NCBI GenBank assembly: GCA_044869275.1
Contig: JBIOXB010000201.1
Span: 1 to 25,130, forward strand
DNA from: a bacterium
Lineage (GTDB): Bacteria > Zhuqueibacterota > Zhuqueibacteria > Zhuqueibacterales > Zhuqueibacteraceae
Direction: 5' to 3'
Length of the DNA stretch: 25,130 nucleotides
Below, piece after piece: positions 18,001 through 21,000 of this stretch. The number at the start of each line of letters is the position of its first letter. Positions within the stretch are counted from its first letter, which is position 1. The position numbers were made by a program.

Positions 18001-21000
18001 TCCAAAGTGGCGGGCCGCTTCCTGCTGCTCTTTTCCGAAACGGAAAGCAAAACGTATGTTTATGACAGGAAAACCAACAATCAATTTGTCGCCGGCCCAA
18101 GCACGAAACTGAAAACCGGTGCAGTCGATTCGATTGCCAACTTTCACGAAAACAAGCCGCTGCTGCGTGATTATGGCCACGATACCAAGCCGTTGCCGTT
18201 TTTCGCTTACACCCCGGACGATGGCGTGTTTCTCGGCGCCGGCTTGAAGTACATGTTTTATGGTTTTCGCAAAAGCCCGTACAGTTCCATACTTACCGTT
18301 GCCGGCAACTATGCCTTTCTCACCAACGCTTTTCGGCTGCGCTTCTTCACCCACTTGGTTGACGTCAAAAAGGATTTGGATTTCACTTTTGCGGCGACCA
18401 CCACGGTGCCGCAAGAAGTGACCAATTTCTACGGCCTCGGCAACGACGCCCCGCGCGACGCCACGCTGGAAAAAAATGAATTCTATCGCGTGCGCTCGGA
18501 GGAATACTTGTTGAGTCCCATGCTGCACGTCAAATTGCAGCGCAGGACCGTTCTTTCCCTCATTACCGCGTACCGGCGCTTTGAAACGAAATTCAAGAAC
18601 AATGACTTCATTTCCACCGTACAGCCTTACGGCAGCGACATCGGCTCAGTCTTGCAGCTCGGCACGGCACTGACTTATGACAGCCGCATTCATCCGGTCG
18701 CAGCCTGGCGAGGTTTTTTCTTCCGCGCGGGTGCAATTTATTATCCCAAGACTTTCAAGAACGACAAAGACTTCACCAAAACGATTGCCGACGTGCGGCT
18801 CTATTTCACACCACTCCAACCGCTGTCTCTGGGGGCGCGCATGCGCGGTGAGAAAATTTTCGGAGCGTTTCCATATTACGAAGCCGCTTACTTGGGCGGC
18901 AGCAGATCTCTGCGGGGATTTTTGCGGGAGCGCTTCGGCGGGGACACTTCAGCCCTGGGCAGCGCGGAGGCGCGGCTCTATCTACTCAAGGTCAAGTTCC
19001 TGTTCCAAACCAGTTACGGTATTTTGGCAGGCGTGGACGCGGGACGTGTTTGGGTGGATGGCAATAGCCCGGGTGATTGGCACACTTCCGCCACCGGCGG
19101 CATCTGGATGGCGCCGATATTCCCGACCAATGTTTTCAGCTTCAGCCTGGCCAGCTCGCCCGAGGGTTTGAGGCTGACGATTGCGGGAGGGTTTGCATTT
19201 TGAGCTTAGCCTCGGAAGTACACAGAAGAAGACGGAAGGAAAACTGGAGAGCTTCACTAGCTCCCACGGATTGAAAAAGCCCGCGGCTAAAGCCACCATC
19301 AGTGGGATGCTTCAATCAAATCGTCAAGCTCGAGGCAATACCTGTAAGTGTTCAAGATCATCGACTCTTGACGAACGTTCCACTCCGAACGGTCGCCCCA
19401 ATGACCAAACCCGCGCTGATCAGCACGATGTTTTTGATGATATACTGACCCTCCAACGTCGGCGCAAAGGGAATTTGAGTGAACACTTCATGAGGAAAAA
19501 ACATGATCGGCGTGATCGTGCCCAGCATTTGCACCCACAGCAGCAGCAATGTGATGCGCATGAATACTCCCAAAATCAATCCCAGTCCAATCAAACATTC
19601 CCATGTTGCCATTCCCTAATTTGAAAATCCTTGCGGCGCCAGTCGCACTGCGGTGGCGAACTCGTTCCTGAATTTCCACAGCCACGCAAAGCTTGTCACC
19701 CAGAATAGAATCAAAAAAGCAGCCAGCGTCAAGGTGATGGCATTCTGTTGTGCCGCAAGCATAGTGGCCAGCAAAATCACTCCCACCCTTCCGGCTTCCA
19801 GCCAAAACGCCCAGCCTTTGCGATCCAAAATTCCGCCCAAAGCGAGCGTGGTGAATAGAATCATGGCTGCCAAAGCAACAAGCATCGCCATCGGCCAGGT
19901 ATTTTCTTTCATCAAAATCCAAAACGTTGCAAACGTTGCGGGGAGAAATTGCACGAATACGTATGCCGTCAATCCGCGCGGGATTTGCGTATCGAATTTG
20001 ACGTAGGTTTCCACCGAAACTTCGGGATGTTGCGGCAATGGCGCTATGCCGGCGGGCCGCCATTCCGGTGGCATGAAGAAGAGTTTGGCCTTGTCGACAA
20101 AGCGTGGAAATTGCCCGGCCAGATTTTTGAGCTTGATCCAATAAGAAAAATTCGCCCAGAAGGGATTCCAACTGTTCAGCGGTTCGGTGACGCCGTAAAC
20201 CACGGGTTCGGTTTCAGGCACGAAGGTGCCGAACAGGCGATCCCAAATAATGAAAATGCCGGCGTAGTTTTTGTCGAGATAACGCGGGTTACGGCCGTGA
20301 TGCACGCGATGGTGCGAAGGGGTGTTCATTATCCATTCCAGCGGGCCGAGCGTCTTGATGGCCTGCGTGTGGATCCAAAACTGATACAGCGTGTCAAATG
20401 CGGCCATGGTTAAAAACATGGCCGGCGGGAAGCCGATGAGCGCCAGCGGCAAATAGAAAATCCACGAGAACCAGCTTTGAAACGCGCTTTGCCGCAGCGC
20501 CACGGCGAGATTGAAATCCTCACTTTGATGATGCACGATGTGCGCAGCCCACGGTGCGTTCATGCGATGGCTGACACGGTGAAACCAATAATAAAAGAAA
20601 TCCACGCCGAACAAGAGCGCAATCCAGGCCACAACTGCACTGGACGAAATTTCCAGCAGCTTGAAGTTTTGATAAACACCGACGTAAGTCGCCAGGATGG
20701 CGGTGCGCGTGAAAACGCCGACCACTTGTTGCGCAATGCCACAGCTCATGTCATTGATGGCGTCGTTGAAGCGGTAATAGTCCTTTTTCTCAAACCGCGC
20801 GATTAAAACCTCGACGCCGATGAGCAACAGGAAAGCCGGAATGGCCAACGCAATGTAATTCAACATGGCCGTCTCCATGAGTTGGAGTGAGCGTTTGTTG
20901 GAGTGATGGATTTTTGGAGTATTGCCCTGTGGAAAACTTAAGCAGTCAGGGCGGGATTGTCAAGGAGGGAAAAAATCTGCGACGCGTGAAACGTAATACG

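What a model noticed while it worked through the whole genome (the two positions that open the first line are those of the whole stretch)
19616..20866. Animal-type alkylglycerol monooxygenase (AGMO) homologue in a bacterium that also encodes ether-lipid synthesis genes
g04086 (416 aa) aligns with mouse, frog and rat AGMO at 40% identity over 358 residues, almost the whole enzyme; the genome also has GGGPS-, DGGGPS-, CarS- and GGR-like genes and a pterin-4a-carbinolamine dehydratase. Boldest reading: it is a true bacterial ether-lipid-cleaving monooxygenase that turns over the cell's own or scavenged alkyl/isoprenyl glycerol ethers. AGMO activity is so far known only from animals.
Evidence so far: Swiss-Prot: AGMO Mus 40.5% q3-360/s38-396 E 8e-81; best hits all animal AGMO. 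Pfam FA_hydroxylase. Ether-lipid genes g03395 (PcrB, 44%), g01607 (UbiA, 36% to M. kandleri DGGGPS), g00564 (CarS-like), g01873 (GGR); g01185 Pterin_4a. A 2026 paper states 'AGMO is not known to be functional in bacteria' and cites one AGMO-like prodigiosin cyclase (passage read, call 86).
(Added by a program. Inside this text positions count along the whole contig: contig position 1 is position 1 of the stretch shown here. "Call 12" and the like, gene names such as g00115 and contig names such as C1 are that model's own, and its searches are not shown. The text may have been shortened before it was handed on; [...] marks where a part breaks off. The agent that wrote the report below was given it as the finding of a first reader that could run no searches.)

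Follow-up and report, generated by a model that had tools for sequence, protein, structure and literature searches.

The report
Bacterial AGMO-like oxygenase lacking cofactor glutamate
This intact gene belongs to a common but untested bacterial family related to the animal enzyme that cuts ether-linked lipids; it probably does similar chemistry on scavenged lipids, but it lacks the residue the animal enzyme uses for its cofactor and shows no link to the cell's own archaeal-type ether-lipid genes.

Summary
The homology is real: 416 aa, 39% identical over 368 columns to a fish AGMO, all 15 residues essential in human AGMO kept, dN/dS 0.12-0.24. It is not specially 'animal-type': relatives are abundant in bacteria (239 MAGs in PMC13543475) and it branches with bacterial, not eukaryotic, sequences. 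Glu137, the tetrahydrobiopterin-affinity residue, is Arg101 here. The tie to the genome's ether-lipid synthesis genes fails: GGGP synthase is in 144 of 151 phylum genomes, this gene in 10, and diethers or glycerol phosphates are not animal AGMO substrates. Better support for ether cleavage comes from elsewhere: relatives sit beside (64 of 80 loci, mostly one family) or are fused to YhhN lysoplasmalogenase, and in the host family the two unlinked genes co-occur in 19 of 19 genomes, though this reflects few events. The scan noted that gene pair three times before on other DNA. Best reading: an O2-dependent di-iron enzyme cleaving scavenged lyso-alkyl ether lipids with an unknown reductant (0.45). 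No activity is shown.

The parts
19616..20866 (-). AGMO-like membrane di-iron oxygenase gene, 416 aa, intact
   Evidence: 39% to tuna AGMO; AlphaFold2 model pLDDT 94, pTM 0.91; dN/dS 0.12-0.24 against 11 family members
20240..20581 (-). Catalytic core, residues 96-209: H96, H100, H109, H112, H113, H166, H186, H189, H190, Q126, D198, N200, Y201, W208, D209 (= human H132 ... D244, all essential)
   Evidence: human numbering from PMC3304488 and PMC7911779 fits with offsets 36 and 35; 15 of 15 kept
20564..20566 (-). Arg101 (CGC) at the position of human Glu137, the residue that sets tetrahydrobiopterin affinity
   Evidence: HRVSHR against tuna HRFAHE in the alignment; Arg in 10 of 12 family members, Glu in 2
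19676..19978 (-). C-terminal four-helix membrane region (residues 297-397) as in full-length AGMO; Y302, D348, R360 have the spacing of human Y338, D384, R396
   Evidence: model helices; AGMP_C (PF24858) only E 0.005, 17.2 bits, below the 28.3 cut-off; alignment; Y302 and R360 invariant in 110 sequences
19358..19612 (-). 3' remnant (84 aa) of a DoxX-family membrane protein gene starting 4 bases after the stop; not shown to be functionally linked
   Evidence: 86% identical to the C-terminal half of a 162-aa DoxX protein in same-genus genome G001 (unpublished); not found by this query in any other fetched locus

Best explanation
A membrane-bound, O2-dependent di-iron oxygenase of the AGMO-like branch of the fatty acid hydroxylase superfamily. 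Shown: intact nine-histidine site, full-length AGMO architecture, purifying selection, an aerobically respiring host family. Inferred: it hydroxylates carbon 1' of a mono-O-alkyl glycerol or lyso-alkyl phospholipid; the hemiacetal falls apart to fatty aldehyde plus glycerol(phospho-base), as in animals. Inferred: the substrates are scavenged (eukaryotic or myxobacterial ether lipids) and the enzyme complements the genome's unlinked YhhN lysoplasmalogenase, which handles the vinyl-ether form, for detoxification and carbon. Inferred: because Glu137 is Arg, electrons come from something other than tetrahydrobiopterin bound in the animal manner (another pterin, or a ferredoxin/cytochrome chain as in other family members; the latter is general knowledge).
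For: 15 of 15 essential and 8 of 12 activity-lowering residues of human AGMO kept. Eukaryotic AGMOs form one clade among these bacterial sequences (23 rows, SH-aLRT 99). YhhN lies in 67 of 80 GTDB loci, directly downstream in 64; AGMO-YhhN fusions in Burkholderiales (120 of 120 listed hits of a fusion query), in a different part of the tree. 47 of the 66 YhhN-linked genes have Gln, not Glu, at position 137, so the link does not need the glutamate. In the host family both genes are present in 12 and both not found in 7 of 19 genomes. The genome's YhhN keeps all 8 residues proposed catalytic in TMEM86. Heme-copper oxidase in 19 of 19 family genomes. No DUF2229 (plasmalogen synthase/Ger-type) gene and no ElbD-like protein found in the own genome, which fits outside substrates.
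Against: No bacterial member has shown this activity in the papers searched; the one characterised relative, PRUB680, cyclises prodigiosin. No YhhN next to the gene in the window or in 11 family loci, and in none of 15 distinct Arg-type loci examined. The 80 loci are redundant (49 Sphingobacteriaceae); in evenly drawn samples YhhN was within 1.5 kb in 2 of 7 Bacteroidota loci and 0 of 13 Myxococcota loci. The 19-of-19 match rests on roughly one to three events, three of the seven negative genomes being under 80% complete and a fourth only 59%, and the YhhN of genus g3 is a different subfamily. YhhN also occurs in 13 of 42 relatives without the full-length gene. Most essential residues are shared by the wider superfamily. 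E137A leaves 13% activity in the human enzyme; the effect of Arg is unknown.
Confidence: 0.45

Rival explanations
1. It oxidises some other hydrophobic substrate (lipid hydroxylase or desaturase like OlsE, or a C-H activating enzyme like PRUB680); the YhhN link belongs to other sub-branches, and the Arg-type branch has changed job.
For: PRUB680 precedent; weak OlsE hit, 63 bits vs cut-off 475; Arg at 137; no Arg-type locus has adjacent YhhN (0 of 15); relatives are also fused to beta-lactamase-like, alpha/beta-hydrolase and BP74 domains; neighbours vary across the host family.
Against: Closer to AGMO over the whole length than to OlsE; Arg- and Glu-type members are sisters inside the host family and both co-occur with YhhN; Arg also occurs in two of 14 named eukaryotic sequences.
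Confidence: 0.33
2. It acts on alkyl ether lipids as a 1'-desaturase, making the vinyl ether that YhhN then hydrolyses: a two-step route to the same products.
For: Fusion and operon with YhhN suit a sequential pathway; the superfamily holds desaturases, which lack the glutamate; no CarF/PEDS1-family gene found in 19 family genomes, though that search had no positive control.
Against: The known 1'-desaturase (CarF/TMEM189) is another family; the closest characterised ether-lipid enzyme is a hydroxylase.
Confidence: 0.1
3. One reading: it turns over the cell's own archaeal-type isoprenoid ether lipids.
For: GGGP synthase above cut-off, DGGGPS-like and CarS-like genes present; a dephosphorylated mono-ether would have a free hydroxyl and a C20 chain.
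Against: GGGP synthase 144 of 151 versus this gene 10 of 151; such synthesis genes are a known FCB-group trait (PMC7852524); genes are on separate contigs; animal AGMO rejects sn-2-substituted and sn-3-phosphate ethers; closest relatives outside the family are in lineages linked to YhhN, not to GGGP synthase (neighbour clusters).
Confidence: 0.07
4. The Arg substitution has made it inactive or non-catalytic.
For: Charge reversal at a residue that affects cofactor and iron affinity in the human enzyme.
Against: All 48 Arg-type sequences among 121 keep all 15 essential residues, and dN/dS is 0.12-0.21 among Arg-type family members; Arg recurs (13 changes on a 132-row tree).
Confidence: 0.05

Closest known systems
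Animal alkylglycerol monooxygenase (AGMO/TMEM195, EC 1.14.16.5)
   Same: 39% identity over 368 columns, nine histidines and six other essential residues, C-terminal membrane region, one tree neighbourhood
   Different: Glu137 is Arg; H189, Q191, E203 also differ; about 35 residues shorter at the N-terminus; outside the eukaryotic clade; no BH4 pathway or aromatic amino acid hydroxylase shown in the host; activity untested
PRUB680, prodigiosin cyclase of Pseudoalteromonas rubra
   Same: Bacterial AGMO-like di-iron enzyme; described as closest to AGMO (PMC13543475, PMC6667630)
   Different: Different reaction. Its sequence could not be obtained and the primary paper was not held, so identity, length and residue 137 were not compared
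Bacterial AGMO-like + YhhN (TMEM86 lysoplasmalogenase) operons and fusions
   Same: Same protein family (45-53% identity to Bacteroidota members); host has an intact YhhN
   Different: Genes unlinked here; linked members carry Gln or Glu at 137
Ornithine lipid hydroxylase OlsE (NF052566)
   Same: PF04116 core, 63 bits
   Different: Far below the 475 cut-off; only residues 78-217 match

Membership tests
Fatty acid hydroxylase superfamily (PF04116) | Profile match and histidine boxes | tested here: met
   103.2 bits vs cut-off 31; nine His plus W, D kept
AGMO (EC 1.14.16.5) | Whole-length homology | tested here: met
   39.1% over 368 columns to tuna AGMO
AGMO (EC 1.14.16.5) | 15 residues essential for activity | tested here: met
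AGMO (EC 1.14.16.5) | Glu137 next to the second histidine, H-E-[ILV]-N-I-[FILM]-W-A-[AG]-H | tested here: not met
   H-R-M-N-A-P-W-A-A-H; motif from PMC3304488
AGMO (EC 1.14.16.5) | C-terminal domain PF24858 | tested here: inconclusive
   17.2 bits, E 0.005, cut-off 28.3; a family member reaches 36.4; four helices in the model
AGMO (EC 1.14.16.5) | Belongs to the eukaryotic AGMO clade | tested here: not met
   In a 14-row bacterial clade (SH-aLRT 99), outside the 23-row clade holding all 14 named eukaryotes; quick LG+G4 tree, deep branches weak
AGMO (EC 1.14.16.5) | Tetrahydropterin supply in the host | tested here: inconclusive
   FolE and dehydratase present; the one PTPS-family gene is nearest QueD; no PF00351 in 19 genomes; sepiapterin reductase, FolX, FolM not tested
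AGMO (EC 1.14.16.5) | Pterin-dependent cleavage of alkylglycerols | not testable with these tools
   needs an enzyme assay
PRUB680-type prodigiosin cyclase | Orthology to PRUB680 and a prodigiosin pathway | not tested
   sequence not obtainable; pig genes not searched
AGMO-like + YhhN module | Adjacent or fused YhhN | tested here: not met
   none in the window or 11 family loci; YhhN on contig C182
AGMO-like + YhhN module | Co-occurrence in genomes | tested here: inconclusive
   19 of 19 in the family but few independent events
OlsE (NF052566) | Score above cut-off | tested here: not met
   63.1 vs 475

The most novel reading that the evidence does not exclude
Arg-type AGMO-like proteins are bacterial ether-lipid-cleaving monooxygenases that work without tetrahydrobiopterin; position 137 (Glu, Gln, Arg) together with position 236 (Tyr, His) marks alternative electron donors within one enzyme family from whose bacterial diversity eukaryotic AGMO arose.
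Probability: 0.3. Interest if true: 0.75.

Novelty: new variant of a known kind. Interest (0 to 1): 0.4.

Why it matters
No enzyme is reported in the papers searched that cleaves alkyl ether lipids in bacteria, and animal AGMO has not been purified (PMC3617469, PMC7911779) and has no structure in the PDB copy. Bacterial members are candidates for both gaps, and natural Glu, Gln and Arg variants at the pterin site would test why AGMO alone in its superfamily needs a pterin. This gene is one of thousands, from an uncultured host and without an informative neighbourhood, so it is a useful Arg-type test case rather than the best entry point; cultured operon and fusion carriers are better.

Tried and rejected
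Solved structures: no sequence match at E <= 1; Foldseek none at E <= 0.001, yeast Scs7p only E 3.0; the wide search returned generic four-helix bundles for residues 292-408, uninformative. A single-sequence model was poor (pLDDT 45) and not used. ESM Atlas gave only PF04116 clusters. No RNA holder was listed. No sigma-70-like promoter in 19100-21300. No AGMO-YhhN complex prediction was obtained, so binding is open. Transfer from animals: rejected by the tree and gene GC 52% vs genome 55%. Conserved neighbourhood in the host family: none. Anaerobiosis as the reason for absences in the family: rejected. CarF search had no positive control. PRUB680 was not found in two plasmid searches (19 and 4 records unlisted). 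The residue table printed applied human numbers to tuna directly and is off by two; only its alignment blocks and scores were used. The two outgroups were long branches and did not root the tree; one search left them out. The 137/236 coupling did not reach significance (median p 0.06). A paper noting the bacterial AGMO-YhhN pairing was not found in searches or in passages; the library lacks most subscription papers.

Full report
Observation. The window holds an intact minus-strand ORF at 19616-20866, 416 aa, whose only Pfam hit above cut-off is FA_hydroxylase. I had no mouse, frog or rat sequence; a 445-aa tuna AGMO obtained through searches aligns at 39.1% over 368 columns, E 6e-83, and bird, beetle, nematode and chytrid sequences at 36-48%. 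The AlphaFold2 model from a 110-sequence alignment is confident (pLDDT 94) and shows the hydroxylase core plus four C-terminal helices. dN/dS against 11 same-family genes is 0.12-0.24 (simple Nei-Gojobori count, synonymous sites near saturation). The host is probably candidate phylum KSB1: a hit so named (70% identity) falls among same-family loci in the tree; this is an inference.

Residues. PMC3304488 (parts 2-4 of 5 read) lists 15 residues whose mutation abolishes human AGMO activity. Human numbering fits this protein with offset 36 (residues 125-174) and 35 (197-244): all 15 are kept. Of 12 residues whose mutation lowers activity, 8 are kept (E152, Q166, Y174, Q197, E212; Y338, D384, R396 by spacing and the alignment) and 4 differ (E137, H189, Q191, E203). 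Glu137 matters most: E137A raises Km for tetrahydrobiopterin 18-fold and leaves 13% activity, and the authors note that no other superfamily member has an acidic residue there (the supplementary figure they cite was not seen). Here it is Arg101. Among the query and its 120 best hits the column is Glu 71, Arg 48, Gln 1, Ser 1; in the host family Arg in 10 and Glu in 2 of 12. Arg recurs: 13 changes on a 132-row tree, including Physarum and Diphylleia representatives (each may have other paralogues). Arg almost never occurs with His at position 236 (1 of 30, against 42 of 101 non-Arg rows); independent pairs go the same way 5.3 to 0.1, median p 0.06: suggestive only.

Not rare, not specially animal-like. 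All 8000 scored candidates passed E 1e-20, and many of the 120 listed are labelled alkylglycerol monooxygenase by JGI. Evenly drawn samples gave full-length matches (E <= 1e-75, centre genome included) in 6 of 81 Bacteroidota, 12 of 61 Myxococcota and 2 of 101 Acidobacteriota genomes. Scored against tuna AGMO, this protein ranks 155 of 334 bacterial-type rows. In a quick LG+G4 tree of 134 rows all 14 named eukaryotic sequences lie in one 23-row clade (SH-aLRT 99) among bacterial-type rows; this protein lies in a 14-row clade with its family (99), next to four unnamed rows (94). Deep branches are weak and the root is not established, so a bacterial origin of AGMO is compatible, not shown.

The synthesis genes exist: GGGP synthase passes TIGR01769, the DGGGPS-like and CarS-like proteins fall below their cut-offs; GGR was not tested. 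But PF01884 is in 144 of 151 phylum genomes while the full-length AGMO-like gene is in 10 of 151, all one family, and GGGPS/DGGGPS genes are a published trait of the FCB group (PMC7852524, passages). Animal AGMO needs a C12-C20 chain and a free sn-2 hydroxyl and rejects sn-3 phosphates (PMC3617469, passages), which excludes archaeol and GGGP if the specificity carries over; PMC7911779 cautions that these rules come from homogenates. For pterins: FolE and the dehydratase are present, the single PTPS-family gene is nearest QueD, no aromatic amino acid hydroxylase was found in 19 family genomes, and the dehydratase does not track the gene. An orphan dehydratase leaves room for an unknown pterin enzyme, but such orphans are common (6 of 14 control genomes have it, 1 of 14 the hydroxylase).

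Neighbourhood. In the window the gene follows an alpha/beta hydrolase and precedes a DoxX remnant and a convergent Omp85-family gene; no neighbour is conserved across the family. Elsewhere one neighbour stands out: YhhN lysoplasmalogenase (Pfam-confirmed on one representative). It was found in 66 of 80 GTDB loci with the own-genome YhhN as query and in 67 with a profile built partly from those neighbours, 64 directly downstream. 49 of the 80 are Sphingobacteriaceae; adjacency also holds in loci labelled Flavobacteriales, Weeksellaceae, Chitinophagaceae and Saprospiraceae, and three Acidobacteriota or Flavobacteriales loci have it 2-3.4 kb away. A fusion query listed 120 hits, all with both domains, the named ones mostly Acidovorax (selected by design), all 119 new ones Glu-type. 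Against generality: 2 of 7 Bacteroidota and 0 of 13 Myxococcota loci from even samples have YhhN within 1.5 kb, and none of 15 distinct Arg-type loci does. The own genome has a YhhN on contig C182 with all eight residues proposed catalytic in TMEM86 (PMC11994398 passages). In the family, 12 genomes have both genes and 7 neither, while heme-copper oxidase is in all 19. A one-gene marker tree (18 of 19 genomes) shows that this is about one to three events, partly in incomplete genomes, and the YhhN of genus g3 is a separate subfamily. YhhN is also in 13 of 42 more distant relatives lacking the full-length gene.

Mechanism. YhhN/TMEM86 hydrolyses lyso vinyl ethers and AGMO oxidises lyso alkyl ethers, both giving fatty aldehyde and a glycerol derivative; bacterial YhhN activity is published, one case described as protecting against toxic lysolipids (PMC9052158, title and passages). 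Repeated linkage of the two in separate lineages is therefore the best clue to the family's job. I extend it to this protein with less confidence (0.45) because it is unlinked and Arg-type. No gene for own alkyl-ether synthesis was found with DUF2229 or NAD_binding_4 searches (genome 94% complete; AGPS not searched), so outside lipids are the likelier substrates. Rivals: another substrate (0.33), 1'-desaturation feeding YhhN (0.10), own isoprenoid ethers (0.07), inactive (0.05). PRUB680 is known to me only through citing passages; its paper was not held and its sequence not obtained, which leaves the main rival uncompared.

Earlier notes and data limits. I found the YhhN link before consulting the scan's notes; three earlier notes on other genomes report the same pair, one marked as partly fallen on a later check, without detail. 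They are not independent support. Unpublished genomes: G001 underlies the DoxX comparison and one row of the dN/dS, co-occurrence and tree results; G014 one row of the co-occurrence, dehydratase, oxidase and marker-tree results. Other papers seen: PMC9131029, PMC6667630, PMC7484904, PMC3137066, PMC4758236, PMC9471318 (passages); PMC11130421 and 10.1101/2025.01.14.632903 (reference-list hits only); PMC11683472 (listing). No supplements were opened; the AGMO tree of PMC13543475 (Figure S12) may bear on placement.

Verdict. A real, intact AGMO-like enzyme; an ordinary member of a widespread, untested bacterial family, of the Arg-137 variety. It fails the AGMO membership test at the cofactor residue but probably works like AGMO on its substrate. 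Interest 0.4.

Noticed in passing
window 19358-19612 (-): DoxX-family gene remnant; the same-genus genome G001 (unpublished) has a 162-aa DoxX gene and more DNA between it and the AGMO-like gene, so a deletion removed the 5' half here.
   Followed up: partly
P0125-P0178: 52 of 66 long forms are AGMO-like proteins fused to beta-lactamase-like (PF13354) and Golvesin_C (PF25275) domains, named ones Steroidobacteraceae/Gammaproteobacteria; two others are fused to an alpha/beta hydrolase, three to BP74_N.
   Followed up: no
window 20564-20566 and 20264-20266: Residues 101 and 201 (human 137 and 236) covary: Arg goes with Tyr, His with Glu or Gln; human Y236 is essential yet His in 59 of 121 bacterial hits.
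   Followed up: partly
L035-L037 (G024, G036, G031): Short (284-298 aa) AGMO-like proteins without the C-terminal helices, with Gln or Lys at 137, in other families of the phylum.
   Followed up: no
P0399, P0360: Physarum and Diphylleia AGMO-like representatives also have Arg at 137; Physarum is reported to encode AGMO and BH4 synthesis (PMC4758236).
   Followed up: no
L160:4907-8128 (G000:C182): yhhN lies directly upstream of a fused 2-oxoacid dehydrogenase E1 alpha/beta gene here and in three relatives.
   Followed up: partly
window 2599-4755 (+): Dicarboxylate/amino acid symporter (SDF) fused to a solute-binding domain (SBP_bac_3), 718 aa.
   Followed up: no
window 8442-16359 (-): CusA/CzcA-type heavy-metal RND efflux system with a CusRS-like two-component pair; ordinary.
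   Followed up: no
L172:5344-6081 (G000:C171): GGGP synthase gene follows recA and alaS; the family is present in 144 of 151 genomes of this phylum.
   Followed up: partly
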